In this document: positions 5,901 to 30,081 of the stretch, in pieces | Position numbering within the stretch: position 1 is the stretch's first letter | Layout of the letters: each line of letters opens with the position of its first letter | DNA from: the human T2T-CHM13v2.0 reference genome, Homo sapiens | Length of the DNA stretch: 64,000 bases | Direction: 5' to 3' (one strand) | Assembly (NCBI RefSeq): GCF_009914755.1 | Contig: NC_060933.1 | Made by a program: the position numbers and the translations under genes | The notes under the pieces: generated by a model | What the model was told of the DNA's origin: nothing | The model's input: the letters and a program-made list of their open reading frames with translations, nothing else | Databases searched by the model: none

Positions 5901-6378
5901 ACAGTGAACTTTCTTTTGCAGGTACTGTGCAAGATTAGTTGCCAGCTGTACCAAATGTAAAACAGAATCAGGTAACAAACAACATCTTCCACAAATTTTC
6001 AAAAAACCTCCATTTGCATTTCCACTTGCAGTGATCCTTGTTGTCTTCTACATCTGAACATTTCTGTGGCCAGGTAGTGGGTTACCTCTCTTCTGCATTC
6101 CCGTGACTGCTAGTTTAGATTTCAAATTTCTCTAGCATTTGAAGTCACTGAATACTTACCTGTTTTCCCAGTTCCACAAATGTGTTGCAGTCATACCCTC
6201 TCCCATTCTCTTGTTCCTGTGGGTCTATTCTTTCACTGTAGTAATTTCAGTAAGGATTTGGAGAAAGCAAAGGTAAAAGCACGAATTCAATTCTTTGTGC
6301 TCAACAGAATGTCCTGGTACTTAACTCTCTATTTTTGGATTTCAGAAATAATTCCTCATTTAAAATAACTATGTTGCA

Positions 6379-7365: not shown

Positions 7366-7559
7366 CAGGGAGGAAATGTTGAGACCTGTCACCTTTGCAT
7401 ATCCTCAGCAGCAAAATCAGTGCCACTTCTGTGGAGGGGAAATGGGAGCATGCTATGTGCTCCCGGGCTGTGCTGAAATATATTTCCTGGTACAAGAGCG
7501 TTTCTTAAGCTCCCCACCCCTCCCCAATTTCCCAGGAGCAGGACCAAGAAAGAGGGAGG

Positions 7560-7775
7560 GATAAAGGATGCTTCTCCCAGCTAAAAGGGCTCCCTGAAAG
7601 CCGCCTTCTATGGTTTCCTTATCTCATATCGGTTCAAATTTTGTCTCAATGCCATGTCTAGATTTAAGAAAGACTGGGAAGTAGTGTCATTTAGCTGAAA
7701 ACATCAAGTCCCTAAGAAATATTGAGAATCTGCTACTAAAGAAAAAGGAAATTGATATTACGTGACAACTATTAT
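7560..7775 (-). mobile_element. Old MLT1-type LTR fragment
   Basis: gactgggaagtagtgtcatttagctg...tgctactaaagaaaaagg resembles old MLT1 LTRs; boundaries approximate. Confidence 0.4.
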
Positions 7776-8519
7776 GGCAGCTTTGGAAGATGCTTTCTTC
7801 CTTCAGCTTTTTCCACTGATGGCTAATCTGTAAACCTTCATATTTTTGCCCTCTTATTTTCTGCCTCTGTGGCTTCCTCTTCCCACCTTATCTTCATATG
7901 CTTTCCACTTCCTTACCTAACTATAATATAAAACTAATATATCCTTTATATTATTTACTATAACTTACTTTACGTTTCCATTAGCTTTGAAAGTGGTGAG
8001 CCTGATTATTTAATAATTTTTCATCTAAGGAACTTGATAAACTGAATGATTCTGCCTTTGCTTTATATAATTGTCTTATCTTTTGCCTCCCTTTTGGGTT
8101 AGGTTAGCCATAAAATAAAGACAATCTCTGACTTTTTCTGATAATACGGTGAGAAATGCCTGGCTTCTTCTCCTTCATTCCCTTTCCATATATAACTTTT
8201 AACCTCTGTGTTCATAGCTGTGAATCTTCTTTGTCTTTAAAGTGTTAATTCCTGTTTGTGAATTCCAACACTTAATCATATGTTAAATAAAATGTATCTT
8301 TTCACACTTGAGTTTTGTCTGTATGATTATGCTATTATACTAATTATATGCTTCTGAAAATATCTTGCAAAAATTGTAAGGTGTGTGGAGTAATAATGTA
8401 TTATCTGCAATTTCAGAGAAAATAAAAACAAATTTTGTGTTATTTTAATCATATATAATTAAAGATTAGCAGCTGGGTAAAACATCTAGAAAATTATATC
8501 CAATCATTCCTCCCTATAG

Positions 8520-8710
8520 CTGTGGTTGTCGAACTATAATGTGCATAAGGCTTACTTAGAGTCCTTGTTAAAACTGGAAATGCATAGGCCTCATCTCTAG
8601 AGACTCTGATTCAGTAAATGTAATGTGGGGCCCCCAAAACTGCATTTTAAATCAGCACACAAAGATCTGCAGATAGAATACCAGTTGTGATCTAAGAGAA
8701 AACAGAATGT
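8520..8710. mobile_element. MER5-like hAT-Charlie MITE
   Basis: cttgttaaaa...agagactctgattcagtaaatg...ggggccc...ctgcattttaaa core typical of MER5A. Confidence 0.65.
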
Positions 8711-8885
8711 GGAGTGATAGACCAAGGCTATAGGTGCTAAAACCAAATAAACAACAGAAAAAGAAGAGGTCAATGCATCTATGTTAAAAGCCTCTGTATT
8801 TAAGAGAATATACATGAGAGGAAAAGTGATTATACAGTAACTTTCCAATTTTGAGATGAAATTAAAGGAAAAGGGAAGATAATTA

Positions 8886-9269
<384 letters not shown>

Positions 9270-9519
9270 TCAGAGGTTAACTTATACCAGTATAAAATTT
9301 GGCAGACACTGATATTATATAACTGATCATAAACTATAAGTAACTGATTACTATCAAATAAGAACAATATAATGATTAGATTGATAATACAAAAAGATAA
9401 TGGTTAGGTTGAGGATCATCGAAAGACTATGCACTAATTTCTACACTATGTAAACAAAAGTTTAGTTTTTAAGATTTCTACTTCTGGAGTCAGTTCTAAT
9501 ATCTACTAGCTATATTAAC

Positions 9520-10160
9520 TTTAACAAAGTCTAGCTTATCGACTATTTCTTTCATGGATTGTGCCTTTGGTGTTGTATTTAAAAATTCATCTCCATACCC
9601 AAGGTCATCTAGGCTTTTCCCTACGTTAACTTACAGAGGTTTCACAGTTTTACATTTTACATTTAAGTCCATAATCCATCTTGAGTTAATTTTTGTTAAT
9701 GGTATAAGGTTTCCATCCAGATTCTTTTTTTTTTTATTTGCATATGGATGTCTGGTTGTTTCAGCATGATTTGTGAAAAACAAAAACATCTTTGCTCCAT
9801 CATATTGCTTTTTCTGCTTTATCAAAGATTAGTTTACTATATTTGTATGCATCTATTTCTGTACTCTGTATTGTGTTCCATTGATCTATTTGTCTATTTT
9901 TTACAAAAGTACTATGTTGTTTTGATTCTGTAGTTTTATAATAGGTTTTGAAGTCAGGTAGAGTTAGTCTTACAACTCTGTTCTCCTTCAATTTTGTGCT
10001 GGCTATTTTAGGTCATTTGCCTCTCCATATAAACTATAAAATCATTTTGTCAAGACCACAAAATAACTTGCTGTGATTTTTATTAGGATTGCATTGAATC
10101 TATAAATCTATAGATCAAGTTTGGAATAATTGACACCTTAAAAATATCGAGTCTTTCTAG
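9520..10160 (-). mobile_element. Old L1 (L1MB/L1MC-like) ORF2 fragment
   Basis: Minus-strand ORFs give L1 ORF2-like peptides (LTLPDFKTYYK, IDQWN, LIFDK, TKINSRWIMDLNVK). Confidence 0.9.
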
Positions 10161-13100
10161 TAACTATATTATAACAGATAATTTATTTAAGTCTCAGCTG
10201 TGTCAACATAAAATCAGGATTACATGTTAATAAATGCATGAGGTTACGATGATGACTAAATAAGACAATGTAGGTAATGTATGTCTACTGCATGAATGTT
10301 CAATATTATTATACTTACAACACACTCTTTCATATTGCCCAAAGTTGTGACTAAGAAATAAACAAGGATAAATTCAAATAATAAATTCTCGTGTTCTACA
10401 GCTACTGGGTCAGGGGACGATTGCTGAACAAAAGCTTTGTCTAATCCTGTGCTAAGAACATTTTCCCCTGGAGGGATCCATTTGCCTCTCAAATCTTGGC
10501 TGTCTTGAGAAAATTATTTGGAGTGAAATGCATGTGGAAATGAATTAAATCCTCTGACCATGGATTGCCAAGATTGCCTTCCCTGTAGCTACTTAAAACT
10601 GTCACTCTCTCATACATGTAATAGCGCCTAGAAAAGGAAAAAGGCTTAGATCTCTTCCAAAGGAAAATCCTCCATTCCTGCATCTATTTATCTGAACCCC
10701 AACATTGTCATGGGTTTCCTTGGGCCTGGGAAGATTAACTGAACAATTATATCCCTAACTCTTTCCTGCCTACAAACTTGGATTCAAAAATAGGAGAGAA
10801 TATGTATTATTTTATCTCATAGCTGATCTGTAGCTATGAATCAACTGAATCTAGTTTACTTGTCATCTTAAAGCAGGTACAAATTATCCTATTTAGTTTC
10901 ATTTTATGTTTCATAATTGAATACCTCAATTAGCTAGTTGCTAGAAGGAGATAGCAAAAACTAGAATAGCAGAACCATCTGGGTTCATTCAGTGTAGGAT
11001 ATCTATAAATGTCACAAAAATTCAATGGCTGTCATTGTCATCCCTCTGCTGGTGGCAACCAAATCTGTATTTCCAGCCCCAATATCTCTCCTGAGTTTGA
11101 GATCAATGGATTGAATTGCCTCCTGGATTTCAAACTGCTACTCAATTAATCATTCAACCATCCCCAGAGGTGTTCCTTCCAGATTGGTTTTGAATACATG
11201 ATATGGTGATGACCAGTTACCAAGCCCTACACTTATTCTCTGTCTACTTTTTAATATCCACACTAGCAGTCCTTAACTGTGGTCCCCTTCACCTCTTGTC
11301 CGGATTGCTAAAGCTTCCCCTTAAATTATTTCCTTTCACTCTTTTGCCTACTCCAACTTATTTTCTATATTATCAGTAGATTGATGTTTTAAACAATTCC
11401 AAAATTCTCCCTTCTATGGGTTACATCTTCCCATGACTACAGATAAAAATTAAATTTTATTTCCTTGGCATTGTACATTTTAGTGTGATCTTTGTGACCT
11501 CACGCCAGCTTAACTATACGGTTTCATCTGCAACTATCATCAAAGCCCACTAACCAATGGCCACCACACAAGTTTAGTCAAAGCTATTAAGGTTTATTGC
11601 AGCTTCCTGCAGCAAGGGAGAATACACATCAGAGGAACACAGCGCTTTTGTCAAAGAAAGTTAGGAGAGGCTTATGATAATATTCCGACATGTGCAGAGA
11701 GATTCTAAAGCAGATTTAGAGAAGTGCAGACAATTCTGGATAGGATGTTGTCAAGTACCAGGAACAAGTCAATGACTGGATATCCTTACATGTTTTTTAA
11801 TCTGGAAGACAAGGCATTCAAAGTGGAGCTAAAATTATCACTAGTAAAGAAACAGTAGTCACTTTTGCTTGCCTTTGGAAGGGGATGTTTAGTTACTGTG
11901 ATTGCAAGGTAGGTGTCCTTTCTTTGTCTTATTCTAGTGTGGTCACAGAGTGGCCTTGCCTGAGTATTGGTTCTATTCTAAGAAAGTTGTTTATGTTTAG
12001 TTGGGACAATTAAGGCAAACTGTTAGCTTCCAGCAGTGAGCTGCTAGGGTCATTTTTCACTTTCTCACTACCCATGTCTAGTTCTACATCCGGGTCTACT
12101 AAACAATTTGCAGCCCCTTGAAAGACTTGCATTCTTTCTAATTTATGAGTCTTGACAGAAGCAGTTTGGAAAGCTTGAAAAACATCCACTGCACTTTTTC
12201 CAGGATTTCCTCCTACTCATTCTTTAGAATTCTTTCCCCCTTCTTATGTGTGTGCACACATGCATTAATATATATTCAAGAAAATGAGTATATTCACATT
12301 ATTTTACAAAGAAAAAAACAAATGAATTAAGTAAAATAAAGTGATCTTTAATTCATTCATAAGCCATCTCATTCTTCTTCCCAGATTTAATCACTCATAT
12401 TGCTTATATAATTATAGGATTTTTTTCTATACACGCTTATGTATAAATGTAGTTTTACTCACTCAATAACACACATATTCAAATGCTTAGAATACAGTTT
12501 CTAATGTTGTTTAGCATGCTTTTTTAATAGCCCTTAAGAATGTTTTGAAAGTGTCTATATGTTTATCTATATCATTCCCTCATCAGAATGCAATATCATG
12601 GGTCTCCTCGGTGCCTGATGAATCTCAATAATGCCTGCACAATGCTGGACACAGAGTAAGTCCTCTTGATAAATGTATAGGGAACTGTAATAGAATGCTA
12701 TAAACTACTTCCATAGGAAACCAAATTATTAGAAATCTCCTCTTATAAGCATGAACTCAGAGTCAAGGGAGTTTGTTTTAGAAGTCAACTAATATAGCTT
12801 CAGGCCCTCCCACTCATTTTGACATGCATATTAAAGTTTGTTTCACAAAGATTCCACTACCCCTAAGCATTCTAGAATCAGCATTTCCAATGTTCCCTCC
12901 ATATCAACTCCTCTGTGGAGTGTTTGTGCTCACAGGCCTCCTGCAGTACATATTGGCTTACTTTATATTGTATATGAAACAACAGCTTAGGGACTCAATT
13001 GTTCAATCACAACCTTGTTATAGAGTTTACACCTTTGATAATTTCAAAATTTATCTTTTTGAGGTTAGGGATATTCTCAAATTTTTCAGGCAGAAGGCTT

Positions 13101-14959: not shown

Positions 14960-15334
14960 TTATTTATAAACTAAAATTCACCAGAATACTATTGGCAGTA
15001 CAATAAAATTCAAATTATCTGTCAATACTTTAAATTGTACTAAAGAACCCTGTTCTACAATCCAAAATCTCAATAAACTTCACAACCACTTGCTAATTCA
15101 GTTAACACAATGTCATTTCAGCAAACTCTAAAAAGGGTGGTAAAATTATGACAATAATTATCATATAAACCTCAGATCAGGGCATAGAGAATGAGCTACA
15201 TTCTCTCACTTATAAGTCTATTAACAGAATCCTTTAGAAACCTAAGAGGTTAAAAGTAAATTAACAACAGAAGGAAGCCCAATCTAATGAGGCTTTGAAA
15301 TGTAGGCATAGCTCACTTTCCTCAAATAAAAATC
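14960..15334 (+). pseudogene. MT-RNR1: NUMT piece 1: decayed mitochondrial 12S rRNA, 3' half
   Basis: Colinear motifs versus recalled mammalian 12S: ttcaccagaatacta, cctgttctacaatc, cttgctaattcag, ttcagcaaactctaaaaagg, aatgagctacattctct, tcactttcctcaaata; left boundary uncertain. Confidence 0.8.
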
Positions 15335-17764
15335 TATATTAGTCTATTTTCATATTGTCATAAAGAAATGACTGAGACTAGGTAATTCATAAATTAATGA
15401 GGTTTAATTGACTCACAGTTTAGCATGGCTGGGGAAACCTCAGGAAACTTGCAACCATGGCAGAAGGAGAAGAGAAAGCAAGGCACCTTCTTCACAAGGC
15501 AGCAGGAAGGAGAAGTGCTGAGCAAAGGTGGAAGAACCCCTTATAAAACCAAAAGATCTTGTGAGAACTCACTATCATGAAAGCAGCCTGGGGCAAAGTG
15601 CCCCCATGATTCAATTACCCTCCACCTGGTCTCTCCCTTGACACATGGGGAGTATGGCAATTATAATTCAAGATGAGATTTGGGTGGGAACACAAAGCCT
15701 AACCATATTGTTCTGCCCCTGGCCCCTTCCAAATCTCGTCTTTTCACATTTCAAACAAATCATGCCTTCCCATCAGTCCACCAAATTGTTAATTCATTTT
15801 AGATTTAATCCAAAAGTCCAAGTCCAAAGTCTTATCTGAGACAAGGCAAGTCCCTTCTGCCTATAAGCCTGTAAAATAAAAAACAATTGAGTTACTCCCA
15901 AGATACAATGGAGGTAGAGGCATTGGGTAAATGCTCCAATTCCAAAATGGAGAAATTGGCCAAAATGAAGGGGCTACAGACCCCATGCAAATCCAAAATC
16001 CAAAGGGGCAGTCATTAAATCTTAAAACTCCAAAATGATCTCCTCTGACTCCATATCTTACATCCAAGCCACGCTGATGCAAGAAGTAGGCTCCCATGGC
16101 TTTGGGCAGCTCTGCCCCTTTGGCTTTGCAGGGTACAGCATCTTCCTAGCTGCTTTCACAGGCTGATGTTGATTGTCTGCTGCTTTTTCAGGCACACAGT
16201 GCAAGTTTTCAGTGGACCTATTATTCTGGTGTCTGGAGGATGGTGGTCCTAGTCTCATAGCTTAAGTAGGAAGTGCCCCAGTGTGGCCTCTGTGTGGCAG
16301 CCCCGACCCCACATATGCTTTCCACACTGCCCTAACAGAGGTTCTCCACGAGGACTCTACCACTGCAGCAAAGTCCTGCCTAGATATCCAGGCATTTCCA
16401 TACATCCTCTGAAATCTAGGCAGAAGTTCCCAAACCTCAGTTCTTCACTTCTGCACACCTGCAGGCCCAACACCATGTGTAAGCCACCAAAGCTTGGGGG
16501 TTGCACCCTCTGAAGCAGTGGCCAAAGCTATACGTTTGGCCCTTTCAGCCAGAGCTGCACAGCTGGGGCATGAGGCACTAAGTCCCGAGACTGCACAAAA
16601 GAACAAAGCCCTGGCCCAGTCCATGAAACCATTTTTTCCTCTGAGGCTTCCAGGCCTGTGATGGGGCAGGGTGGGGGGGCTGCCATGAAGACCTCTGATA
16701 TGCCCTGGAGACATTTTCCCCATTGTCTTGGTGATTAACATTTGGCTCCTCTTTACTTATGCAAATTTCTGAAGCAGGCTTGAATTTCTCCTCAGAAAAT
16801 GGGTTTTTCTTTTCTATCACATCATCAGACTGCAAATTATCCAGACATTCTCTGCTTCCCTTTTAAACACAAGTTCCAATTTCAAACTATCTCCCTGTGA
16901 ATGCATAAAACTGAATACTTTTAAGAGCACCCAGGCCACCCCTTGAACACTTTGCTGCTTAGAAATTTCTTCTGTCAGATAACCTAAGTCAACTCTCTCA
17001 GGTTCAAAGTTCCACAGATTTCTAGGGCAGGGGCAAATTGTCACCAGCCTCTTTGCTAAAGCATATCAAGAGTCACCTTTATTCCAGTTTTCAGCAAGTT
17101 CCTCATCTTCATCTGAGACCACCTCAGCCTGGATTTTATTGTCTATGTCACTATCAGCATTTTGTTCAAAGCCATTCAACATGTCTCTAGGAGGTTCCAA
17201 ACTTTCCCCTATCTTCTTCTCTTCTGAGCCTTCCAAGTCTCTGAGAGTTCTAAACTTTCCCACATTTTCCTGTCTTCTTCTGAGCCCTCTGTTCCAACCT
17301 CTCCCTGTTACTCAGTTCCAAAGTCACTTCCACATTTTTGGGTATCTTTATAGCAGTACCCCACTCTCTATGGTACCAATTTACTGTATTAGACCATTTT
17401 CATACTGCTATAAAAAACTATCTGACACTGAGTAATTTATAAAGGAAAGAGGTTAAATTGACTCACAGTTCAGCATGGCTAGGGAGATCTCAGGAAACTT
17501 ACAATCATGGCAGAAGGCAAAAGGGAGGCAAGGCACCTTCTTCACAAGGCAGCAGGAAGGAGAAGTGCTGATGGAAGGGTGAATAGCCCCTTATAAAACC
17601 ATCAGATCTTATGAGAACTCTCTCACTGTCATGAGAACAGGATGGGGCAAATTGCAATCATGGCCCAATTATCCTCCACCTAGTCTCTCTCTTGACATGT
17701 GGGGATTATGGGGATTATAATTCAAGATGAGATTTGGGTGGGGACACAAAGCCTAACCATATCA
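15335..17764 (-). mobile_element. Complete THE1D/MSTA-type MaLR element (LTR 15335-15710, internal 15711-17384, LTR 17385-17764)
   Basis: Two similar ~380-bp LTRs; 5-bp TSD AAATC at 15330-15334 and 17765-17769; internal MaLR ORF remnants (LNGFEQNADSDID, LWNFEPERVDLGYLTEEISKQQS). Confidence 0.95.
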
Positions 17765-17769
17765 AAATC

Positions 17770-17857
17770 TAACATAATATGAATAGTATAAAATAAGTAA
17801 TATGTATCGAAAAAATTAATACCATAAGTAAGCATATTACAAAGTCATTGGGCAAAC
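17770..17857 (+). pseudogene. MT-RNR1: NUMT piece 2a: 3' end of mitochondrial 12S rRNA
   Basis: taagtaagcatattacaaagtcattgggcaaac resembles the 12S terminus (ggtaagcatactggaaagtgtgcttgg) and continues piece 1 across the TSD. Confidence 0.65.
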
Positions 17858-17922
17858 CAAAGGACAATTTAAAGTGCAAAGCATGCCGCTGGGGAATTGA
17901 AACTAACCTTGAAGCCACTTGA
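17858..17922 (+). pseudogene. MT-TV: NUMT piece 2b: decayed mitochondrial tRNA-Val
   Basis: Position between 12S and 16S remnants, expected length, caaag...caaagca...cttga anchors; cloverleaf not intact. Confidence 0.55.
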
Positions 17923-19218
17923 ACCAATCCTAGCTCTAATTAAACTAAATACAATTCTTACTAATAAAGCAAGGAAAACTGTCACTAATAACTATACCAA
18001 ATTATTCCATATGGTATGGAACAGAGAAATCTAATTTAGATTTTAAAGAGTATAACAAAGAAAAAATAAAATACAAAATTGTCATAGAAGAACGGAGTAT
18101 ATTTTTATACCTTTGGCATAATGAATTAACTAGAACATTACAGAGAAATTTTACTTAAGACACAGAAAACAGACAAGCTACTTGTAAATAGTTAATTAGG
18201 AAAAATTCTTCTCTGTGAAAAAATAATGAGAAGGATTTATAGCTAGAGCTAAAAGCTGGTTATCCGAAGCAGAATTTAAGGTCAACTTTAAATTTACCTT
18301 AAGAAGAATCCATCTTAATGTAAATTTAAATGTTAACCAGAAGATATACAAGTCATTTGAAATAGGACAAAATCTTCCTTGGAGAGAAATTACTCATAAA
18401 ATTATAATTGGCTTAAGAGAAGCTTCAATTTCTCATGCATTCTATTCAATCATAACGAAATACCAATAAGCAAAATCACCTCCTAATACCTTATTGTTTT
18501 AATCCATGTATGCAGAGAAAAAATTAATATAAACAATAAGAAATACTTTTCTACATAAGCCCTTACAATAATGAATAAACCACTGATAGCAAATAGATTG
18601 AAAACATAGAAAGTATTAGTGTAATGTACTATTAACCTAAAATACAAATGTAATAAGATTAAAAGGAATAAAAGAAATTTAATAAACCATTATCTCCCCT
18701 CTATTTACTAAAAAAAACTTAATTTGTTAATTGAATATAGAAACTTATTGTCTAATTAGCTAAAGTAATCATGATCTGAATTAATTATTTTGGTTGAGGT
18801 GACCTCAGAACATAGTAAAGCCTCCCAATGATCAAAGCTAGACTAATCACTCAAATACGTGATCATTATTAGTTGGCTCAAGTTTTTTTGGTTGATAATC
18901 TATTTTATTGATGAACAGATTTTTCAATTGGTAATAATAAAATTCCATTTTAGAGGTCAAATTGATGATTAAGTTTATGATTTTATTGTTGCATCCATAC
19001 ATCCTAAAGATGTGACTTCTACTTAAGGTTCTTTAGTGCCATGGGTAAAGTTGAATGTTACCTAAGTTCATATCAGAGCAATTTCATTTGATGATTCTTT
19101 ATGCAAAGGTGTCTTACAATATGAAAGGGCTTTAAAAATGAGGTCCACTCTACAAAAGGGCTTAATATTAATTTGATATTTATCTAAGTACAATAAATTA
19201 TTAAAATCCTAGTCTAAG
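17923..19218 (+). pseudogene. MT-RNR2: NUMT piece 2c: decayed mitochondrial 16S rRNA with an internal deletion
   Basis: tatacctttggcataatgaattaactagaa (18106-18135), agctggttatcc, tcaactttaaattt, tgtaaatttaaatgtta, ttttggttgaggtgacctcaga (~18788-18809) match recalled 16S motifs in the correct order. Confidence 0.9.
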
Positions 19219-20698
19219 GGAGAGGCAGAACAAGTTGCTGGAATAAACCCTCCAGCAATCCCCACCCCGCCATGCCCCACTCCACCCTCAACCCTACCCC
19301 CGGTGTAGCCGCTCACTCAGGGAAACTTCAGATTAAATAACTATCCACACAAGAAAACTTCTTCTCACAAGAGGTAACTAAATCAGGTGAGAAATCACAG
19401 CACCAAGTTATAGCATAATAACAGGAAAGGATGTGTTAAAGAGGATAGGAAGAACAGTCTTGAACTGTCTTCATCACTCCTTTGCCAACCCCATGCAGCA
19501 CTGCATAGACAATCTGCTTGGGAGAGGAAGAGGAAAGTGAGTACGGGACTTTGCATTGGAACTTAGTATCAGCTTCCCCACAGTGAAACACAGTACCAGG
19601 CAGAAACACATGGCTCCCTTTTCCAGTCTGGTGCCTATGGAGGGAGCATTTAGGCTTTGCCCCAGGCAAGAAGAAAATCTGCAGCCTGGGCAGGAGGAAT
19701 CTGAGTCCTGATCTGCTTTACTACCAGCTGATTAAAGTGGCCTTTGGCACCAAATAAATGGACCCAATGGGTCCTCATTTTAGTGACAGGGAGGTCATAG
19801 TGATTACTATCCTTGGGTGAGCACTGTTATTGACATGGTCTGGAAGGCTATAAGCTTCAGATACGACTCAGTGAGACATAAGCTGCAGCAGCCACAGGAG
19901 TGCCCATGTCACCTCTCTGCCAACTCTAGGCAGTGCAGCTTTGAGAGAGACTTCTCCAGGGAAGAAGAGGGAAGTGTGCAGGAGACTTTGCCCTGGGAAC
20001 TAGTACCAACTCTGCCACAGTAAAACAGCCCTGAACTGAAAACCACAAGCCCTTATTTTTGGCCAGTGCTTCCAGACAACGCTTCTACCTCACCCCTAAC
20101 CAGAATGGAATCTGCTGCACTGGCAGGACAGACAGGAGTCCCATCCAGTCATCACCATTGACTGTACACACACATACACAATGGAATACCATTCAGCCAT
20201 AAAACAAAATGAAATCCTATCATTTGAGGCAACATGCGTGAACCTGGAGGATGTTATGTTAAGTGAAATAAGCCAGGCACAGAAACACAAACACCATGTG
20301 ATCTCACTCATAAGTGGAATCTAAAAAAGTTGGTTTCATAGAAGCAGAAAGTAGTATAGTGGTTACTAGAGGCTGGGGAAGAAAAGGGGCAGGAAAAGAC
20401 AAAGAGGTTGTTCAATGAGTAGAAAGTTACAGTTATACAGAAAGAATAAGTTCTGTTTTATTACAAAGTAGGGTGGCTATAACAAATAACAATGTAGTGT
20501 ATATTTCAAGATACCTATAAGAGAAGATTTTGAACTTCAGCTCAAATAAATGTAAATGTTTAAAGTGACAGATTAGTAATTACCCCAGTTTGATCATCAT
20601 ATAATGCATGGATGCATTGAAACATCACACTGTATTCCAGAAATATGTAAAGTATTATGTGTCCATTATAAATTCAAAAAATTAACTAACGAAAAAAT
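19219..20698 (+). mobile_element. Old L1 (L1M/L1MA) with 5'UTR joined directly to the 3' end
   Basis: Starts ggagaggcagaacaag (L1 5' end-like); L1MA 3' end from ~20165 (atggaataccattcagccataaaa); flanking repeat GTCTAAG at 19212-19218 and 20699-20705. Confidence 0.8.
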
Positions 20699-20705
20699 GT
20701 CTAAG

Positions 20706-21088
<383 letters not shown>

Positions 21089-21381
21089 ATGTTCCTAAGT
21101 AATTTATAATTGCAATATTTCCCTATTGTATTAGTTTAGGCCTTCTGAGGGCTTATCAAATAAAAAATTGGGTCACTGAATTTCAAAAAACCAACTAACT
21201 TAGTTCCATATGGATTATTTGAACCGATTGCAGATGTCATAAATGATATATTAAAGAATCATAAAAACCACTTCGATCTCTAATGCGATTAATAGTAACA
21301 TAGATTATTGCACCTGTTATGGTCCTGACCTTGCTTTAACAATTTGAGTGTCTACTTTATCATTATATCAGTTAATAGGTT

Positions 21382-21765
21382 TGTCTTAGTCCATTTTGTG
21401 TTGCTATAACAGAATATCACAGACTGGATAATTTATAAAGAAATGAAATTTATTTCTTAGAGTTCTTGAGGTTGAAAACTCCCACAGGCCCGCATCTGGT
21501 GACGGTCTTCTTGCAGAAGGTGGAAGAGCCAGAGATTGCAAGAGAGCAAGAGAGTAAGCAGGGGCCACTAGCTTTTACAGCAAGCCTACACTCAGCCCAC
21601 ACTCATGATAATTCACCTGTTCCCATGATAACAACATTGATGCATTCATGTGAGCTTTGCCTGCATGGCCTAATTACCTCTTAAAATTCCCACCTCTCAG
21701 TACTGTTGCATTGAGGATTTAATGTCCAGCACATGAACTCAGCAGGAAAAAATCAAACCAAAAGA
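21382..21765 (-). mobile_element. MST/MLT1A-type MaLR solo LTR
   Basis: tgtcttagtccattttgtgttgctataacagaata... terminus; imperfect TSD aggtt/agatt. Confidence 0.85.
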
Positions 21766-21911
21766 AGATTTAAAGCTAGAATTACTATTAGTCTTCTCTA
21801 TATGAAGCTTAGCAGTGTAGTCAGTCAAGCTCATAGTGTCCAGAACTTGAATAATCCAGAATCCTTTGAGCAGAAACAAAAATCATGAATTCCACGTAGG
21901 CAATTACTCTG

Positions 21912-21952
21912 TGGGGTGCGTGTGTGTTGTTGTGGGTGTGTGTGTGTGTGTG
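21912..21952. repeat. Imperfect (TG)n microsatellite
   Basis: Direct reading. Confidence 0.85.
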
Positions 21953-22957
21953 CACATGAGTCATTTACATTAAGAGCTAACTTCCCTGAATTATTTGCTC
22001 TGATCCACTTTTAACTTTCGAGAAAAGGCAGAAGAAATACAGAAAAGGTTTTAGTTACTTCATTGGATTTGCAACTCAGTGTATAAGTTAAACTTCCCAG
22101 CTTGATAAATGAGGAATTATCCTCTGTCTTTATATTTTATGTACAAAAATTATTCTCACATAGATTCATCTACCCTTGACTATTCTCAACAAATCACAAA
22201 GTGGTCACTGCTCTATATAGTGGAGACTGCCCTTAACTTGCTAATTCAGGGTGATTTTAATCAATGTGTAGTTTTATTAGGAGATGCTCAGATTTATAAC
22301 TGTTATTGCTTATTTCTTAGTAATAATTTTCTTAATCATAATACCGTCATGATTGGAAGATTTTGAAACTCATTAAGGCCATTAATTATAGGCACTCCAG
22401 ATAGAGCATTCTAATAAATAAATAAGCTTTTGATTATTGCCCCAGGATTCCTTTTACTGCTTGCAGCATCAACAGCAGGAGCAAGGCAGGACTAGAGTGA
22501 ACAGTGTGCCCTCCACCCACTGGCAGTCTAACACCTGTCGGCACGATAGATTTCTTTATCATCTTCCTCATCTAGCAAGGTTTCATCAATTTTAGGTGCC
22601 ATTAATTTTCTTACTGCAATTAATTAAAATAAAACCACCTTTTACATCCCAATACCACAGACCACTAATTCCATTTTCAGTATTATTACAACTTTTTATA
22701 ACTGCCATAGAAATCACTGTTAACAAAACAGAATCTAAGTATTACCTTTACAAATCTAACAGAAAGCAGAGACCCAATTTAATATCAACATTTGCGCTGA
22801 AGTGTTGGACATGCTGAAGGATACATGCTTTGGAAAAATTTCACATATTTTAACATAATGTTCAGGAAACCATTCTTTAGTTGCATAAAAACTAATCTGA
22901 GTAGCACTGCCAATTAGAATTTTAGGATTTATTGTATATCACGTTATAATTTAACCC

Positions 22958-23305
22958 TGTAGGGTCTGCATATTTATGTTTCCCCAAAATTAACATGCTA
23001 AAATCCTCACCCCCAAGGTGACGATGTTAGGACGTGGAGCTTTTGGGAATGATTAGGTCATGAGGGTTCTACCCTCATAATAAGATTAATGGCCTTATAA
23101 GAGAGGCTGGAGAGAGCTCCTTTACCCTTCGTTTTTGTGAGGACACAGAAAGAAGGCAGTGTCTATGAGGAAGTGTGTCCTCACCAGACACTGAATCTGA
23201 TGGCTACTTGATCTTGTACTTCCCAGCCTCTATCACTGTGAAAAATAATTTCCCTGGTTTATAAGCCACCTACTATACTATATATATTCAAACAGGCTAA
23301 AAAAT
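22958..23305 (+). mobile_element. MLT1A-type MaLR solo LTR
   Basis: cccaaggtgacgatgttagg...gattaggtcatgaggg...ccttataagaga...ccagacactgaatctg...ttataagccac motifs. Confidence 0.85.
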
Positions 23306-24078
23306 ACCCTGAATATTGAAATAGATGTGCAAGTACATCCAATTTCTGCTGCCATAATTATTACTATCGTATCAGAGGTTAAAGTCTTTGACTAGCTATG
23401 TTACAAGAATAACATAAGTGATCACCAGTTATACTCTGACTTATGTATTTTATTTGCCTATGTACTGCATATGGGCTAACAGGAGTTGTTTTATCTACTA
23501 AATGCATCATTTGTTTACTGATTCCTGTTATTTTTAAGATAAATATTATATCTTATATGAGGCAAGGCTCAACCACCATGTGTAGGTAATAATGGAACTG
23601 GTTTTTCCCAATATTTTCTTGGCCTTTCTGGAATGTAGCAATGATAATCAGCCTATACAGGTGCTGAAACAAGATGAAAACTCTGTCATCTATGAAGCCA
23701 CTAGTTCACTGATAGCAGTGATAATAAAATTCTTTATAAGATATTGGTAAAAATAAATTTACCAATCTTTACTTAATTTTATCAAAGTTAAATTATCTGT
23801 GTCTGTTAGCATATCAACTCTATCTAGGTTTTCAATTCCATATTTTTCACTTTAGAGAAATGTTCCCATTTCCATGTCTTATAATAGCATTTATAATTAG
23901 CTCTTTGGTATTTGGTATTATATATCTAATATTAAACACAAAATTAACTCACAAAAGCACCACAGATGCTTAAGAATTAGAAACAGTATGCACATCTTAC
24001 CTTTAATTATTTTAATTCTTATTGATCTTCCATTATTATGAAATTATGAATATTTAATTGTGGAGTAATAACTCATTC

Positions 24079-24360
24079 CTTTTTTTATTTTTCTTTTGAG
24101 ACAGGGTCTTGCTCTATCACCCAGGCTGGAGTGCACAGCAGTCTCGACCTCCCAAGTTCAGGCAATTCTCCTATCTCAGCCTCCTGAGTAGCTGAGACTA
24201 CAGGCACGTGATACCACGCCCAACTAATCATTGTATTTTTTGTAGAGACAAGGTTTTGCCATGTTGACCAGGCCAGTCTCAAACTCCTGGGCTCAAGGTT
24301 TCCACCCACCTTGGCCTCCCATTGTGCTGAGAGTACAGGCCTGGACCACTGGGCCCAGCC
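24079..24360 (-). mobile_element. AluJ
   Basis: gagacagggtcttgctct, aactcctgggctcaag diagnostics of AluJ; diverged, with a small internal deletion. Confidence 0.93.
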
Positions 24361-26340
24361 TCCATAATCCATTCCTAACTGCAGAAACAACAAGATGACA
24401 ATGAATTGAATTTATGATTATAGAGACTATGAAATTCTTAACTTTGATTCAGACGAAGATAATTATGTCTATAGAAATTGATATTCATGTAGTAATCCTC
24501 ACAGAACTGCCATCTAAACATTAACCTCATCAGAAGATGTGCTTCATTCATGAGCTGCTCCTTCTTTATATTTAGAACAGTTGCTTTTCCAGGACAAATA
24601 AAGTGAGAAGTATTAACGTTTACTAGACTTGACATTACAAACAATGCTCTTAAACTATGTAACTCAAATTATACCTTCATGGACTTTGTGCTCGAGGTAG
24701 TACTTTAGAATAGTTTGAAAACTGACCCATATCAGTGCTATAAATTCATAGGGGAGATAAATTATCATTAATTATTAAAGTTAAAGATGGAGAACTTAAA
24801 TCCCTTGCAAATGAAATACCACAATTAGATACAGTACTATAAACTACTAATATATTATCAATAATTCTAGTGATATTTTTAATGAAAATTTTTATGCTTG
24901 TAGTTTTGAACTATCACCCTCACCCGTAACACTTGAAACATCAATACTGAGTAACAAAGTAAGAGATAATTTTTATCTGCCTCTGTCCTCCAGCAATAGT
25001 AGGACTAGGTATTGTAAACTTTATTATTTTCTCAATAAATGCATTTCTTTCACCAAACCATCTTATTACAAATTGTAATTAGATGCTAACAGCAGATAGA
25101 CTAATTTTAAAGTAGCAAGTGTTAACTCATAGAGACTTGGCACAGGTTTTATCTCTAACATCAATTTAATCTCATTCCATTTACTGAAACTTCAGTCCTG
25201 CTAGTACCCATACCTCACACAGTTACCTAAGCCAAGCAATTCACAGCAAATTTAGGAATGGCCATCTCACTATGGGCAGAAACAGTTATTTTTTGTTTTC
25301 ATCATAAAAATGAAGCCTTATCAGAGTATTTTATATCCCAAGAAACACCTGCTATATGTGTGTCTATCTTTGTCATCATGATCATTCCTGGAATATTTAA
25401 CAAATAGTTTTAGCATTACGGTTTGCAGCAAACATTACAGTTTGCCACTTGTTAATTCACCTAGTTAGAGGAGCTGCATTAGCCCTATTACCAATTAGCC
25501 CATCAGTAGTCTCGATCAGGTTTATTATTTTAGTACTTCTTATGGTTTTAGAGTCCACAGTTAGCTGAATTCAATCATATATCTTCACATCTTCAGGAAG
25601 CCTATATTTACAAATAACACCTATTAACTAACATGCTAATCATATAATAAAATTAAGCCTTTGGCCACTAAGAGGAGGCTTATCTGCTAGACTCCATTTA
25701 ATTTATCATTTCTAGTAATAGTCATACTATTAAATAATGCACAAGCAATAGGCTATAAATAAAGAGATGGTGTTTAAGAGACTACTTTCACAGGTCCCTA
25801 GAGGTCAGTTGCACAAAAAGAACTTACATATGAAATAATCCCCTTCAATGTGCTAGAAATATTTTTTATTACAGGGTATTTTTTATCTTTCATTCAAATA
25901 TAGCCCCTATACCAAAACTTGGTAGAGTCTGATCACTAGCATGTATTAAAACACTAAACTACTATATCCATTAGCAGTATCATTTCTTAACACTTTTATC
26001 CTTCTAGTTGCTGGAGTAGCTATCACTTGGACCACCCCGCACTCCCACAATCTGAAAAAAAGAAATCAAAATGAAACATTACCAGAACTGTTTATCAACA
26101 CTACACTAGATGTTTACATTATGAGAAACCTCAGAATTATTATGAAACATTATACACTAGTTCTAATGACCTCTATGACTCAATATTATTTTTGACAAAA
26201 TGGATTTCATAGATTGTGTGTAATTACTGCTAAAGCTTTAATTATATGTTTTCTATGTCAAATAACATTTTGCTTCACTTTTAATCATTTTAGTTTTGAA
26301 ACTCACCCTAATACAGACCCTCTTAATTGTCATATAACTC

Positions 26341-27340
26341 TTTACTATTTTAATTTTTAATTTTTGTGGGTATATAGTAGGTGTATATATTTATGAGGTA
26401 CATGAGACATTTTGATATAGGTATCATGGAAAGTGGGGTATCCATCCTCTCAAGTATTTATCTTTTGTGTTACAAACAATCCAATTATAGTCTTGTAGTT
26501 ATTTTAAAATGTACAATTAAATTATTGACTATAGTCACCCTGTTGTGTGCTATCAAATACTAGGTATTAATAATCATCACATCATGGAGAATGAAGGATC
26601 CGTCCCCTCAAGCTTTTACCCTTCGTGTTAAAAACAGTCCAATTATAGTCTTTTAGTTATTTCAAAATGTACAATTAAGTTATTGACTATAGTCACCCTG
26701 TTGTACTATCAAAGAATAGGTATTTTTCATTCTTTCTATATTTTTTGTACTCATTAACCATCCCCACACCCTCACACCCAACCCCACCCACTACCCTTCC
26801 CAGCCTCTGGAAATCATCCTTATAACTCTGTGTCCATGGGTTCAATTGTTTTGATATTTAGATTCTACAAATTAGTGAGAATATACAATGTTTGTCTATC
26901 TGTTCCCGGCTTGAATCACTTAACATACTGATCTCCAGTTCCATCCACGTTGTTGCAAATGACAGGATCGCATTCTTTTTATGGCTGAATAGTCTTCATT
27001 GTATATACGTACCACATTTTCTTTATCCATTTATCCCCTGATGGACACTTAGGTTGCTTTCAAATCTTGGCTATTGGGAACAGTGCTGCAGCAAACATGG
27101 GAATGTAGATATCTCTTCTATATACTGATTTCCTTTCTTTTTTGTGGATTCCCAGCAATAGGATTGCTGGTTCCTAAGGTAGCTCTACTTTTATTTTTTT
27201 GAGGACCCTCCAAACTGTTCTCCACAGTGGAGACTGTACTAATTGACATAGTGGAGGTTGTACTAATTGACATTCCCACCAGTGTACGAGGATTCTTTTC
27301 CTCCACATCCTCACGAGCATGTTATTGCCTGTCTTTTCTT
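26341..27340 (-). mobile_element. L1MA 3' end (L1MA2/3-like) with an internal ~145-bp duplication
   Basis: ttttgtgggtatatagtaggtgtatatatttatg terminus; tgatggacacttaggttgc; duplicated block 26423-26568 / 26581-26725. Confidence 0.88.
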
Positions 27341-27344
27341 TTTT

Positions 27345-28615
27345 ACCAGGCCCATGGAAAGTACTGCCAGACTAATGCCAGTCTTTCCTTAAGGCGCAAG
27401 TGCTCTTCAGTCAGCTTGTAGTGAATGTTGCCTGGCTTGAGACTCACCCTTCAAGGCACTGGGCTCCCCTCTGGCTCAGGGAAGGTCTAGAAATGCCATC
27501 CAAAAATCAAGTTCTGGAACCGAGGACCCCAACAGTCCACTTGGTACTCTACTCAACTTGGCTGAACTGGTACCTAAAGTGCAAAACAAAGTCCCCTTTA
27601 TTTTTCCCTGTGGTTTTCTCAAGCACAAGGAGTCTCCAATAGCCACCATAGCTGAGAATGAGCTCAGTCTCACTTAAAGCTGGCAAGTCTCAGAGCCTCA
27701 CCTAAGGCCCTCCACATAGCAACTGGGTACTGCTGCTGGTTATTCAGGGCCCAAGAGCTTTTCAGTTAGCAGGAGATGAATCCTACCAGGACTTTGTCCT
27801 TCTCTTTAAGGCAGCAGGTGTCCTTCTGGCACAGGGAGTGTCTAGAAATGTTGATCAGGACCTCGGGCCTGGATAGTGAGACTGGTGACTCTGACCAGTG
27901 CCCGGTCCTGCTGTGATTGAGCTGGTCTCCAAGATGCAAGACAAAGTTCTTCTCTTTCTTCCCTCTCCTCTCCTTAGGTGGAAAGAAGGGGTTTCTTTTG
28001 GATCCACAAACTGTGCAGCCTGGGGTTGTGGGAGAGGTTATGCCAGCACTCCTTTAGCTGCCCTAGCTGGTGTCTCAGTAGGTCATGTGCCCCTCGAGTC
28101 TGGTTCTGGTCCCTCTCATGTAAAAGTTGCAGTCCCTGTGGCCTAGACTGCCTTTCAAGTTTATTTAGAAGTGCAGAGCAATTTAGCCCCTGGTGACAAG
28201 GTTTTAGAAACTCAAGTTGGGACCACTGGGATCAATGGTTCTCCTCTTGCTAGGACTGCTTTAAATGTTCCCTTATTGGGTGGGAATCAGCTGAGTTTGG
28301 CCTGTTTTTTCTTTCTGCTGTAACAAGGCAGCATTGAGTTCAATGGCTCAAAATTGCTGCTCTCTCCCTCCTCCAGCACACAGAAACACTCTGAGCACCA
28401 AACCACGGCTGCGAGGGGTTGAGAGGTGGCATTAGTGATTCAAAACTGTTTTTTCTACCTCTTCAGTGCCTTTTTCAGTGATACAAAGTTCAAACCAGAT
28501 ATTGTGAGTGCTCCCCTAATTTCTGGTTCTTATGAAGGTGCTTTTCTTGTGTATATAGTTATTAAATTGGTGTACTTGCAGAGGGATGATCAATGGAGCT
28601 GCCATTTTGCTCCCC
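27345..28615 (-). mobile_element. L1M 5'UTR, contiguous with the preceding 3' end
   Basis: Ends gccattttgctcccc (reverse complement of GAGCAAGATGGC-like start); internally repetitive GC-richer L1M1/M2-type 5'UTR. Confidence 0.75.
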
Positions 28616-29362
28616 ACATCCCTATAATATCCTTATTTCCTATATAACAGTGTGTTGATGACAATCATATTTTTATTTTATTAATTAGTACAACTAACTC
28701 CAAATCTGTTACTTTTAAGTCTAAGAAAAATAATCTAATAGTATCAAAACTATTTAATACAGTTTAGCTTCCATAATAGTAATTTCACCTTCTGATTGCT
28801 ACAATTATTACTTAGAGAAAAAAAAACAAATCCAGTGAATTTGGATTTGAAAATCTAGAACTGTCCCACCAAAAGCATTTAACAAAATCCTTCCTGGTAT
28901 CAGTGAAATTGTTACTATTTGAGCCTCAAATTTTACTCTTATTATTCCAACTACCTTGGAATTCTCAAGAAATTAACCTATAAATAATGCTTATTAAAAC
29001 AGTAATTCCTGTGATACTATGAGTCACAGACTTAGCCTACAGATGAATTAAAAACAAACTGGTAAGGCTAAAATTAGGTAGCTTAATAAGACAATTTTGA
29101 CACCTTAGATTATGATTACACCATAATTACCTGATATTCACATTTATATAAACATTTCAATAGCTTTTATAATAACCCTCTTTAAGTATTTTAATTTATC
29201 CCATATAATAACTTCATTACAATGCTTAGAGGGCATAACATCAGCATCAGCTATTATATGCTTTATTAACACTAAATGTTAACCTAACATCAAGCACCAC
29301 ATTTATATTGGCTGCTAGAAAACTGCTGTAGGATTAGCACTTCTGGTAATAGTGGAAGGTGT

Positions 29363-29367
<5 letters not shown>

Positions 29368-29397
<30 letters not shown>
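29368..29397. repeat. (TA)n microsatellite
   Basis: Direct reading. Confidence 0.92.
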
Positions 29398-29401
<4 letters not shown>

Positions 29402-30081
29402 CAACATTTTGTAATAATGTAAACATTTTACTTTACATATATATATATATTCAACATCATAATCTCACTTAATTTACTTGTAATATAATGCTGTACCACT
29501 AACTAGTCCCCAATAAATAATGTAATAAATTACTATTACTAGCATATGTATGACATTTATATTTTAAAATACCCCTATAAGACTGTGGCTTTGACTGTCA
29601 AAAGTGCACATCAAAGCACAGATTATACCAATTGCAGACTGAACGTATAGAGACAGGGCCCATATCTTTTTTTTATAACTACTATCCCTTAATATGTCTA
29701 TGAAAATGTCTACCACTAATGGGAATCTAATAACTTATTTAAGTACTGATTAATTAATTTTAAATGTGCTAAGTAGCTTATTTTATCTACTTTTGGGTGA
29801 AAAGCCCAAACATTTCTTCTTAGTTTCTCTCTTTCTAGGCTACAATTAATCACTGAAATTTGTGGATGTACACACTAATCCTTCCCCCATCTCAATAATA
29901 TTCCAACTGATTTACTCTTTATATCTTTACAATTAAAATTATCAATGTATATTTCTATAGGAAGATCAAATTTCCTGGTTTGTTCTTTATTCATTGGGTA
30001 AGAAAATTTGGATAAGTATTTATTACCAGAATTAGCTATTTAAATTATTAAATAATTATCTTGTTCTTTTAGACCAGCTTT

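What the first reader, a model, noticed from the sequence alone, without database searches (positions are those of the whole stretch)
14960..21975. Cryptic, very old composite NUMT (12S-Val-16S-Leu-ND1) broken into five pieces
Seen: once four transposons are removed, the remaining ~2.4 kb of AT-rich 'unique' DNA carries anchors in exact mitochondrial gene order. These are 12S motifs (14960-15334, 17770-17857), tRNA-Val, 16S (gcataatgaattaactagaa; ttttggttgaggtgacctcaga), tRNA-Leu(UUR), then ATG at 21089 and the ND1 peptide PYGLFEPIADVM. Established: this order is the vertebrate mtDNA order. Inference: it is a single insertion, so decayed and fragmented that default BLASTN-based NUMT catalogues may miss it or list only a fragment. 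I cannot check whether it is already catalogued.
Basis: partly seen in the sequence, partly recalled or inferred. Interest (0 to 1): 0.8.

Follow-up and report, generated by a model that had tools for sequence, protein, structure and literature searches.

The report
Old, transposon-riddled mitochondrial DNA insert (NUMT)

Summary
No chrM is held, so younger human NUMTs from the same genome served as mitochondrial references.

- **Extent:** every significant DNA match in the window is on the + strand and in vertebrate mitochondrial order: 12S, Val, 16S, Leu(UUR), ND1 start, then Asn/Cys/Tyr, CO1, CO2, Lys/ATP8, ATP6, CO3, Gly, ND3, ND4L and an internal ND4 piece. It spans window 14976-29642.
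- **Controls:** 11 of 47 blastn hits have E<1e-3. Reversed references give 0 of 35.
all four are real insertions. Two have exact target-site duplications, and profile gap lengths close across them (59 vs 58 nt, 130 vs 129 nt).
- **Not supported:** 21771-21975 as ND1. The ND1 3' part and ND2 are missing.
- **Annotation:** the RefSeq pseudogenes MTATP6P30 and MTCO3P30 are part of the same insert.
- **Age:** it is 59-62% identical to 13 younger NUMTs that are 77-97% alike among themselves. Second codon positions differ at 165 of 588 sites. It carries a nested LTR element whose LTRs are 85% alike. I infer an age of about 100 My or more.
- **Catalogues:** RHNumtS.2 lacks the locus. Two others list 141 bp and 325 bp.

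It is a non-functional fossil of a known kind.

The parts
14976..15334 (+). 12S rRNA remnant (3' half), the 5' end of the detectable NUMT
   Evidence: nhmmer profile E 1.4e-22. blastn 14966-15271, 62.7% identity, E 2e-19. Nothing significant upstream.
15335..17764 (.). Nested full-length LTR element. It looks like a THE1/MaLR element, but that name is recalled and not tested. Its 5-bp target-site duplication AAATC lies at 15330-15334 and 17765-17769.
   Evidence: The duplication was read. LTRs 15337-15708 and 17387-17762 are 85.4% identical (316 of 370), K2P 0.165. The profile gap of 59 positions matches the 58 nt of 17770-17827 once the element is removed.
17770..17857 (+). 12S rRNA 3' end
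   Evidence: The profile match starts at 17828. 17770-17827 fits only by length and is not significant on its own (31 of 200 shuffles reach its score).
17858..17922 (+). tRNA-Val remnant, with 8 nt including the anticodon deleted
   Evidence: Alignment to 13 NUMT copies, 63.9% identity to their majority base. ARAGORN does not call it.
17923..19218 (+). 16S rRNA remnant, with about 230 nt missing near 18715-18774
   Evidence: blastn 17848-18714, E 6e-34, and 18913-19156, E 3e-14. nhmmer 18775-19205, E 1.3e-24. 16S motifs match at 19 of 20 and 20 of 22 bases. The pangenome catalogue row chrM 1840-2194 equals window 18106-18430.
19219..20698 (+). Nested insertion that looks like an L1 3' end, with the 7-bp target-site duplication GTCTAAG at 19212-19218 and 19219-side copy at 20699-20705
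   Evidence: The duplication was read. 20176-20677 matches an unrelated repeat copy beside the chr17 NUMT at 68% identity, E 9e-60. The L1 name is recalled.
20700..20770 (+). Last bases of 16S and the 5' two-thirds of tRNA-Leu(UUR) (20715-20770). The anticodon TAA is kept.
   Evidence: The profile gap of 130 positions matches 129 nt once the L1 and the Alu are removed.
20771..21066 (-). Alu inserted inside tRNA-Leu
   Evidence: Rfam Metazoa_SRP matches on the minus strand at 20784-20927 and 20951-21065.
21067..21088 (+). 3' third of tRNA-Leu(UUR)
   Evidence: Alignment.
21089..21328 (+). ND1, about the first 80 codons, with stops and frameshifts
   Evidence: tblastn under code 2, 21080-21241, E 3.4e-6. 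Smith-Waterman z 19.5, 0 of 200 shuffles. nhmmer 21118-21328, E 5e-4. ATG 21089 aligns with the ND1 start.
21382..21770 (.). Old solo LTR-like repeat. It sits where about 2.1 kb of mtDNA (rest of ND1, Ile, Gln, Met, ND2, Trp, Ala) is missing. The flanks 21329-21381 and 21771-21969 are unassigned.
   Evidence: 2797 first-look candidates in the genome, of which 40 were scored. Near-full-length copies are 67-71% identical. The flanks are not significant.
21970..22164 (+). Remnant of the Asn / light-strand origin / Cys / Tyr tRNA cluster
   Evidence: blastn 21970-22505 to the chr17 NUMT at L014 9323-9901, E 2.4e-16. tRNA positions in the reference come.
22165..23671 (+). CO1 remnant (22165-22964 and 23306-23671) with about 340 nt of unassigned sequence between the two parts
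   Evidence: tblastn E 1e-10, 4e-4 and 1e-5. blastn 22562-22964, E 1.8e-15. TGA at 22177-22179 aligns with a Trp. The middle stretch is not significant.
23857..24702 (+). CO2 remnant split by an Alu at 24068-24364 (minus strand)
   Evidence: blastn 23878-24033, E 1.8e-9, and 24475-24602, E 1e-4. tblastn. Pfam COX2 E 0.0066, below the cut-off. Alu.
24745..24917 (+). tRNA-Lys and ATP8 remnant
   Evidence: Smith-Waterman z 8.9, 0 of 100 shuffles. ATP8 tblastn 24792-24917, E 1e-5.
24955..25618 (+). ATP6 remnant, annotated as RefSeq MTATP6P30
   Evidence: tblastn 25180-25610, E 6e-7 to 3e-8. The annotation was supplied with the finding.
25621..26359 (+). CO3 remnant. RefSeq MTCO3P30 covers 25621-26290.
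   Evidence: blastn 25211-26359 to the chr7 NUMT, E 1.5e-33. tblastn E 2e-16. PDB cytochrome c oxidase subunit 3, E 2.5e-9.
26360..28624 (.). Nested insertion(s) of about 2.3 kb. The start looks like an L1 3' UTR (recalled). It contains a 158-bp tandem duplication at 26442-26724.
   Evidence: 26659-27345 matches a repeat copy beside the chr17 NUMT on the minus strand, E 9e-57. TRF. No mitochondrial signal.
28625..29350 (+). tRNA-Gly, ND3, tRNA-Arg and ND4L remnants
   Evidence: blastn 28625-29258, E 6e-25. nhmmer 28641-29347, E 1.5e-19. tblastn ND3 28843-29040 and ND4L 29142-29384.
29362..29398 (.). (TA)18 microsatellite, where about 490 nt of the ND4 5' part is missing
   Evidence: TRF.
29427..29642 (+). 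ND4 internal piece (about codons 163-232), the 3' end of the detectable NUMT
   Evidence: All 6 references that hold this part of ND4 place it at the same ND4 position, with scores of 24-38 against shuffle maxima of 19-23. nhmmer 29521-29642, E 1.7e-5. tblastn alone is weak (E 0.21). Nothing is detectable beyond this point.

Best explanation
A single piece of mitochondrial DNA entered this AT-rich intergenic region of chromosome 9 in one event, long ago. I infer an age of about 100 million years or more. The piece ran at least from the middle of 12S rRNA to the middle of ND4, roughly mt 1150-11460. These mt positions rest on recalled rCRS coordinates, checked at one point.

Since then it has decayed as neutral nuclear DNA:
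- C-to-T drift and loss of CpG;
- stops and frameshifts in every gene;
- internal deletions in 16S, from the ND1 3' part through ND2, and in the ND4 5' part.

It has also been split by later insertions: an LTR element with both LTRs, an L1 3' end, two Alus, an old solo LTR, a block of about 2.3 kb, and about 340 nt of unassigned sequence.

About 6.8 kb of mitochondrial-derived sequence survives within a 14.7-kb span. It has no function. It is a molecular fossil.

Shown: homology, order, strand, nesting and decay. Inferred: the single event and the absolute age.
For: Homology and order:
- Of 47 blastn hits between the NUMT references and the whole 64-kb window, 11 have E<1e-3. All 11 are on the + strand and in mitochondrial order, between 14966 and 29258. 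The reversed references give 0 of 35 hits at E<1e-3, with a best E of 0.074.
- Under the vertebrate mitochondrial code, 21 of 38 tblastn HSPs with E<=0.01 have E<1e-3. All 21 lie between 21080 and 29384, on the + strand, in the order ND1, CO1, CO2, ATP8, ATP6, CO3, ND3, ND4L. The 9 HSPs outside the insert have E 0.001-0.01.
- TGA aligns with Trp in CO1.
- Profile searches confirm 12S, 16S, ND1, ND3-ND4L and ND4.

Nesting:
- Two insertions have exact target-site duplications.
- Removing the insertions restores reference spacing (59 vs 58 nt and 130 vs 129 nt).

Uniform divergence:
- Identity to the majority base of 13 NUMT copies is 64.2% for 12S, 63.9% for Val, 60.9% for 16S and 62.3% for Leu.
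- The coding blocks are 56-64% identical.

Age:
- The insert is 59-62% identical to each of 13 younger NUMTs, which are 77-97% alike among themselves.
- Codon positions 1, 2 and 3 differ at 189 of 591, 165 of 588 and 284 of 586 sites. The figure for CO1 position 2 is 58 of 242. For two younger NUMTs compared with each other, position 2 differs at 0.114. This nearly flat pattern is what neutral decay gives.
- The nested LTR pair has K2P 0.165.
- The nested solo LTR is only 67-71% identical to its genomic relatives.
- GC is 30% against 41% in the reference NUMT, and CpG counts are 23 in 6.8 kb against 162 in 9.5 kb.
Against: - Mitochondrial coordinates jump by about 2.1 kb across the old solo LTR (21329-21969). 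Two adjacent insertions cannot be excluded on that ground.
- No tRNA folds well enough for ARAGORN at default thresholds.
- Pfam on stop-free fragments gave only sub-threshold hits. Of 147 fragments, 10 had any hit at E<=0.1, and 3 of those were the right family at the right place. I did not run the minus-strand control.
- The ND4 piece is weak by tblastn (E 0.21).
- Tsuji et al. 2012 put their 141-bp fragment in age class 'a', meaning after the mouse split and before the rhesus split. That is younger than my estimate.
- My absolute age rests on recalled substitution rates and on alignments at about 60% identity.
- No non-human mitogenome or other mammalian genome was available.
Confidence: 0.9

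Rival explanations
1. There are two or more independent NUMT insertions that happen to lie side by side: one from 12S to the ND1 start (14976-21328) and one from Asn to ND4 (21970-29642).
For: There is a jump of about 2.1 kb in mitochondrial coordinates at 21329-21969. About 250 nt of unassignable sequence and an old LTR lie between the two halves.
Against: The two halves share strand, follow mitochondrial order and show the same 56-64% identity. The genome-wide searches run here from the ATP6/CO3 part found no second copy. A deletion linked to the LTR insertion explains the jump more simply. Other internal deletions of the same kind are present in 16S and ND4.
Confidence: 0.06
2. It is a single NUMT of primate or euarchontoglires age (under about 90 My) that looks older because it decayed fast in AT-rich DNA and because the references are themselves decayed NUMTs.
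For: Tsuji et al. 2012 place their fragment in age class 'a'. The firm lower bound from the LTR pair is only about 37-82 My, depending on the assumed rate. The PDB comparison of one CO3 piece does not separate the species: bovine 40.4 bits, human 35.5, mouse 30.8.
Against: CO1 second positions differ at 24% and all second positions at 28%. The insert is equally far from 13 NUMTs that differ from each other by only 3-23%. A nested repeat family is itself about 30% diverged from its relatives.
Confidence: 0.3
3. It is chance similarity of AT-rich unique DNA to mitochondrial DNA.
For: Some short pieces are not significant alone: 15272-15334, 17770-17860 and 19150-19218.
Against: E values reach 1e-33 with collinear order. 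Reversed references give nothing below E 0.074. Protein-level matches cover eight genes under the mitochondrial code.
Confidence: 0.005

Closest known systems
RefSeq/HGNC pseudogenes MTATP6P30 and MTCO3P30 (window 24955-26290)
   Same: They are the best-preserved coding part of this same insert. They share its strand and are collinear with it.
   Different: They cover 1.3 kb of a 14.7-kb structure. The rRNA, tRNA, ND1, CO1, CO2, ATP8, ND3, ND4L and ND4 remnants carry no annotation in the table supplied with the finding.
Ancient and pre-eutherian human NUMTs found with LAST (Huang & Frith, bioRxiv 10.1101/2025.03.14.643190; Results section parts 1 and 2 read)
   Same: They are highly degraded NUMTs missing from the 2011 UCSC track. 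They are detectable only with sensitive DNA and protein comparison, and are reported as at least 100 My old.
   Different: Whether this locus is among their 1,013 NUMTs or their 90 pre-eutherian ones could not be checked, because the supplements are closed. They report that most NUMTs are under 1 kb. This one derives from about 10 kb of mtDNA.
Catalogue entries at this locus: Tsuji et al. 2012 (PMC3467031, hg18 chr9:31489264-31489405, mt 2947-3088) and numt_845 (PMC13179385, chr9:31514106-31514430, chrM 1840-2194)
   Same: Both fall inside the 16S remnant described here. The second equals window 18106-18430 and agrees with my mitochondrial coordinates to within 1 nt.
   Different: RHNumtS.2 (PMC3228558) has no chr9 entry between 18.8 and 33.6 Mb.
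Large younger human NUMTs, such as the chr17 copy used as reference (L014/L015)
   Same: Same kind of event: many kilobases of mtDNA in native gene order.
   Different: The chr17 copy keeps recognisable tRNAs and long open frames under the mitochondrial code. The window copy is about 40% diverged, has no foldable tRNA and is riddled with transposons.

Membership tests
NUMT (nuclear mitochondrial DNA segment) | Significant sequence similarity to mitochondrial DNA | tested here: met
   11 of 47 blastn hits have E<1e-3, the best at 5e-34. Reversed references give 0 of 35. Profile hits have E values from 1.4e-22 to 2.5e-33.
NUMT (nuclear mitochondrial DNA segment) | Segments collinear with the mitochondrial gene order on one strand | tested here: met
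   The order 12S, Val, 16S, Leu, ND1, Asn/Cys/Tyr, CO1, CO2, Lys/ATP8, ATP6, CO3, Gly, ND3, ND4L, ND4 is found, all on the + strand.
NUMT (nuclear mitochondrial DNA segment) | Coding parts readable by the mitochondrial code, not the nuclear code | tested here: met
   The tblastn matches were obtained under table 2. TGA at 22177-22179 aligns with Trp in CO1.
NUMT (nuclear mitochondrial DNA segment) | Embedded in nuclear chromosomal DNA | tested here: met
   The window is chr9 of the assembly. The insert is interrupted by Alus and by elements with target-site duplications.
NUMT (nuclear mitochondrial DNA segment) | Pseudogenised: stops, frameshifts, lost tRNA structure | tested here: met
   There are 9 stops in 21089-21382 and stops in all HSPs. 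No tRNA is called at the expected places.
Pre-eutherian NUMT (sense of Huang & Frith 2025) | Orthologous presence in mammals that diverged from human at least 100 My ago | not testable with these tools
   No other mammalian genome or alignment is held. Only indirect clocks were available.
THE1/MaLR LTR retrotransposon (nested element 15335-17764) | Two direct LTRs, a 5-bp target-site duplication and similarity to the family consensus | tested here: inconclusive
   The LTR pair and the AAATC duplication are shown. The family name is recalled, because no repeat library was available.

The most novel reading that the evidence does not exclude
This may be a Cretaceous (about 100 My or older, possibly pre-eutherian) NUMT that originally held at least 10.3 kb of contiguous mtDNA. 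[quoted passage not shown] It would be a multi-gene snapshot of an early mammalian mitogenome, usable for calibrating nuclear against mitochondrial rates.
Probability: 0.4. Interest if true: 0.45.

Novelty: new member of a known kind. Interest (0 to 1): 0.3.

Why it matters
The locus shows how much of an old NUMT standard catalogues can miss. They record 0, 141 or 325 bp, or two pseudogenes, out of a structure spanning about 14.7 kb.

If its age is confirmed by orthology, about 6.8 kb of sequence spanning rRNA, tRNA and ten protein genes would be a long fossil of an early mammalian mitochondrial genome. It would also give a clean case of neutral decay with dated nested transposons.

It has no sign of function and does not change what is understood about NUMT biology.

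Tried and rejected
- **Rfam** at E<=1 on 10000-32000 gave only Alu/SRP and weak miRNA-like hits, and no rRNA.
- **ARAGORN:** the bacterial mode found nothing. The mammalian mitochondrial mode at default thresholds gave two calls, at window 24411-24492 and 28302-28357, neither at an expected tRNA site. At a lowered threshold it gave 401 calls and is useless.
- **Genome-wide Pfam NADHdh search** listed 93 ND1-like places, but not this one.
- **Genome-wide DNA search** with the ATP6/CO3 part found only itself.
- **Pfam on 147 stop-free + strand fragments** gave nothing over the cut-off. Its two hits to complex I families, Proton_antipo_N at 21875-21970 and Proton_antipo_C at 31933-32067, were not backed by tblastn or nhmmer.
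- **Searches for more NUMT outside the ends** were negative: upstream of 14976 and beyond 29642 out to 32900-34000.
- **One alignment made with --keeplength** gave shifted coordinates. It was redone, and only one search is used for positions.
- **The PDB species comparison** of one CO3 fragment could not date the insert.
- **Catalogue look-ups that failed:** the tables of the T2T NUMT paper (PMC10671835) were not in the held part of its supplement. The held supplement of Uvizl et al. (PMC10764098) has no coordinates. A text search for MTATP6P30 or MTCO3P30 found 0 papers.

Full report
**References used.** The assembly holds 24 contigs and no chrM, so I used younger NUMT copies from the same genome as references.
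- A chr17 copy (L014/L015) carries ND6, cytb, the D-loop, Phe, 12S, Val, 16S, Leu, ND1, ND2 and the Trp-to-Cys tRNAs. It then continues through CO1, CO2, ATP8/6, CO3, Gly, ND3 and ND4L. The tRNAs were placed by ARAGORN in mammalian mitochondrial mode.
- A chr7 copy (L016) covers ATP6 to cytb.
- Seven more copies cover ND4 and ND5.
- Twelve more cover Phe to ND1.
- Mitochondrial coordinates below are approximate. They rest on recalled rCRS gene positions. One catalogue row ties chrM 1840-2194 to window 18106-18430, which agrees with my mapping to within 1 nt.

I ran sensitive blastn (word 7, +1/-1) of the mitochondrial parts of the three main references against the whole 64-kb window.
- It gave 47 hits, of which 11 have E<1e-3.
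- All 11 are on the + strand and in mitochondrial order: 14966-15271 (12S), 17848-18714 (12S end, Val, 16S), 18913-19156 (16S), 21970-22505 (Asn/Cys/Tyr and CO1 start), 22562-22964 (CO1), 23878-24033 and 24475-24602 (CO2), 25211-26359 (ATP6/CO3) and 28625-29258 (Gly/ND3/Arg/ND4L).
- The same references reversed gave 35 hits, none below E 0.074.
- A profile built from 13 NUMT copies gives 14976-15336 (E 1.4e-22), 17828-18714 (2.5e-33), 18775-19205 (1.3e-24) and ND1 at 21118-21328 (5e-4).

- The element 15335-17764 is flanked by AAATC on both sides. The element 19219-20698 is flanked by GTCTAAG on both sides.
- Across the first element, the profile gap of 59 positions equals the 58 nt of 17770-17827.
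- Across the L1-like element plus the Alu, 130 profile positions equal 129 nt.
- The two quoted 16S motifs match the references at 19 of 20 and 20 of 22 bases.
- The ATG at 21089 aligns with the ND1 start codon.
- tRNA-Leu(UUR) occupies 20715-20770 plus 21067-21088, so the Alu sits inside the tRNA.
- tRNA-Val (17858-17922) has lost 8 nt including its anticodon.

**One piece is not supported.** The stretch 21771-21975 could not be assigned: 90 of 200 shuffles reach its score against the rest of ND1 through ND2. The same holds for 21242-21381 beyond about 21328. The mitochondrial signal resumes at 21970 in the Asn/Cys/Tyr cluster. About 2.1 kb of mtDNA (ND1 3' part, Ile, Gln, Met, ND2, Trp, Ala) is therefore missing around the old solo LTR at 21382-21770.

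**The insert is much longer than reported.** I ran tblastn under the vertebrate mitochondrial code with open frames taken from the reference NUMTs.
- It gave 38 HSPs at E<=0.01, of which 21 have E<1e-3.
- All 21 lie between 21080 and 29384 on the + strand.
- Their order is ND1, CO1 (four blocks), CO2, ATP8, ATP6, CO3, ND3, ND4L.
- The 9 HSPs outside the insert have E 0.001-0.01.
- A TGA at 22177-22179 aligns with a conserved Trp of CO1.
- After a (TA)18 microsatellite, 29427-29642 matches an internal part of ND4. All six references that hold that part place it at the same ND4 position, with scores of 24-38 against shuffle maxima of 19-23. A profile gives E 1.7e-5.
- Nothing is detectable upstream of 14976 or beyond 29642.
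- The annotated MTATP6P30 and MTCO3P30 are simply the best-preserved part of this insert.
- Further interruptions are an Alu at 24068-24364 inside CO2, about 340 nt of unassigned sequence inside CO1, and about 2.3 kb at 26360-28624 between CO3 and tRNA-Gly.

**One event or several?** All blocks share strand, order and divergence.
- Identity to the majority base of the 13 copies is 64.2% (12S), 63.9% (Val), 60.9% (16S) and 62.3% (Leu).
- The coding blocks are 56-64% identical.
- The only argument for two events is the coordinate jump at the old LTR. A deletion explains it as well, and similar deletions exist in 16S and ND4.
- I put one event at about 0.9.

**Age.** Firm points:
- The insert predates an LTR element whose two LTRs are 85.4% identical (K2P 0.165). 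That gives 37-82 My for rates of 2.2 to 1.0e-9 per site per year; the rates are recalled.
- It also predates a solo LTR whose near-full-length relatives in the genome are only 67-71% identical to it.

Indirect points:
- The insert is 59-62% identical to each of 13 younger NUMTs, which are 77-97% alike among themselves.
- Against the chr17 copy, codon positions 1, 2 and 3 differ at 189 of 591, 165 of 588 and 284 of 586 sites. CO1 second positions differ at 58 of 242. Two younger NUMTs differ at 0.114 at second positions.
- Second positions of CO1 hardly change in living mitochondria (established knowledge, recalled). Most of this difference is therefore neutral nuclear decay, about 0.23-0.25 substitutions per site for the window copy. 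That points to roughly 80-165 My.
- Composition agrees: GC is 30% against 41%, and CpG counts are 23 against 162.

Against this estimate:
- Tsuji et al. placed their 141-bp fragment after the mouse split.

**Comparison with what is known.**
- RHNumtS.2, the 2011 UCSC track, has no chr9 entry between 18.8 and 33.6 Mb (supplement table searched).
- Tsuji et al. 2012 list 141 bp, mt 2947-3088 (supplement table).
- The 2026 pangenome map lists numt_845, chrM 1840-2194.
- Huang & Frith 2025 describe 364 human NUMTs missing from the UCSC track and 90 pre-eutherian ones (Results section parts 1 and 2 read).

**Verdict.** The kind of object is known. The full 12S-to-ND4 structure is not in any source I could read. 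It is a real, single, very old and non-functional NUMT, a new and unusually long member of a known kind, of modest interest.

Noticed in passing
L014 1320-9901 and L015 1-4400 (G000 C17:23207319-23220300): There is a NUMT of about 13 kb on chr17 that runs ND6, cytb, D-loop, 12S and onward to ND4L, so it crosses the conventional start of the circular mitogenome. Its ND1 frame is open for 329 codons with only TGA 'stops'.
   Followed up: partly
L022 (G000 C5:100553000-100558500, minus strand): This NUMT has a 615-codon open frame under the mitochondrial code that covers all of ND5. It is therefore either very young or unusually well preserved.
   Followed up: no
Genome-wide: A 12S fragment of about 520 bp (query positions 752-1277) recurs at 19 listed places at 85-87% identity. 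Many are on acrocentric or pericentromeric parts of C13, C14, C15, C21 and C22. It looks like one NUMT spread by segmental duplication.
   Followed up: no
window 26442-26724: There is a 158-bp tandem duplication (1.8 copies, 86% match) inside the L1-like insertion that separates CO3 from tRNA-Gly.
   Followed up: no
window 31933-32067: There is a weak Pfam hit to the ND5 C-terminal family Proton_antipo_C (E 0.025). Its distance from the ND4 piece would fit mitochondrial spacing. Neither tblastn nor nhmmer supports it, so the NUMT may or may not reach ND5.
   Followed up: partly
window 21900-21960: A (TG)n-like microsatellite lies just before the point where the mitochondrial signal resumes. 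Rfam gives a sub-threshold EBv-sisRNA-1 hit there (24.5 bits against a gathering score of 58), which is surely spurious.
   Followed up: no
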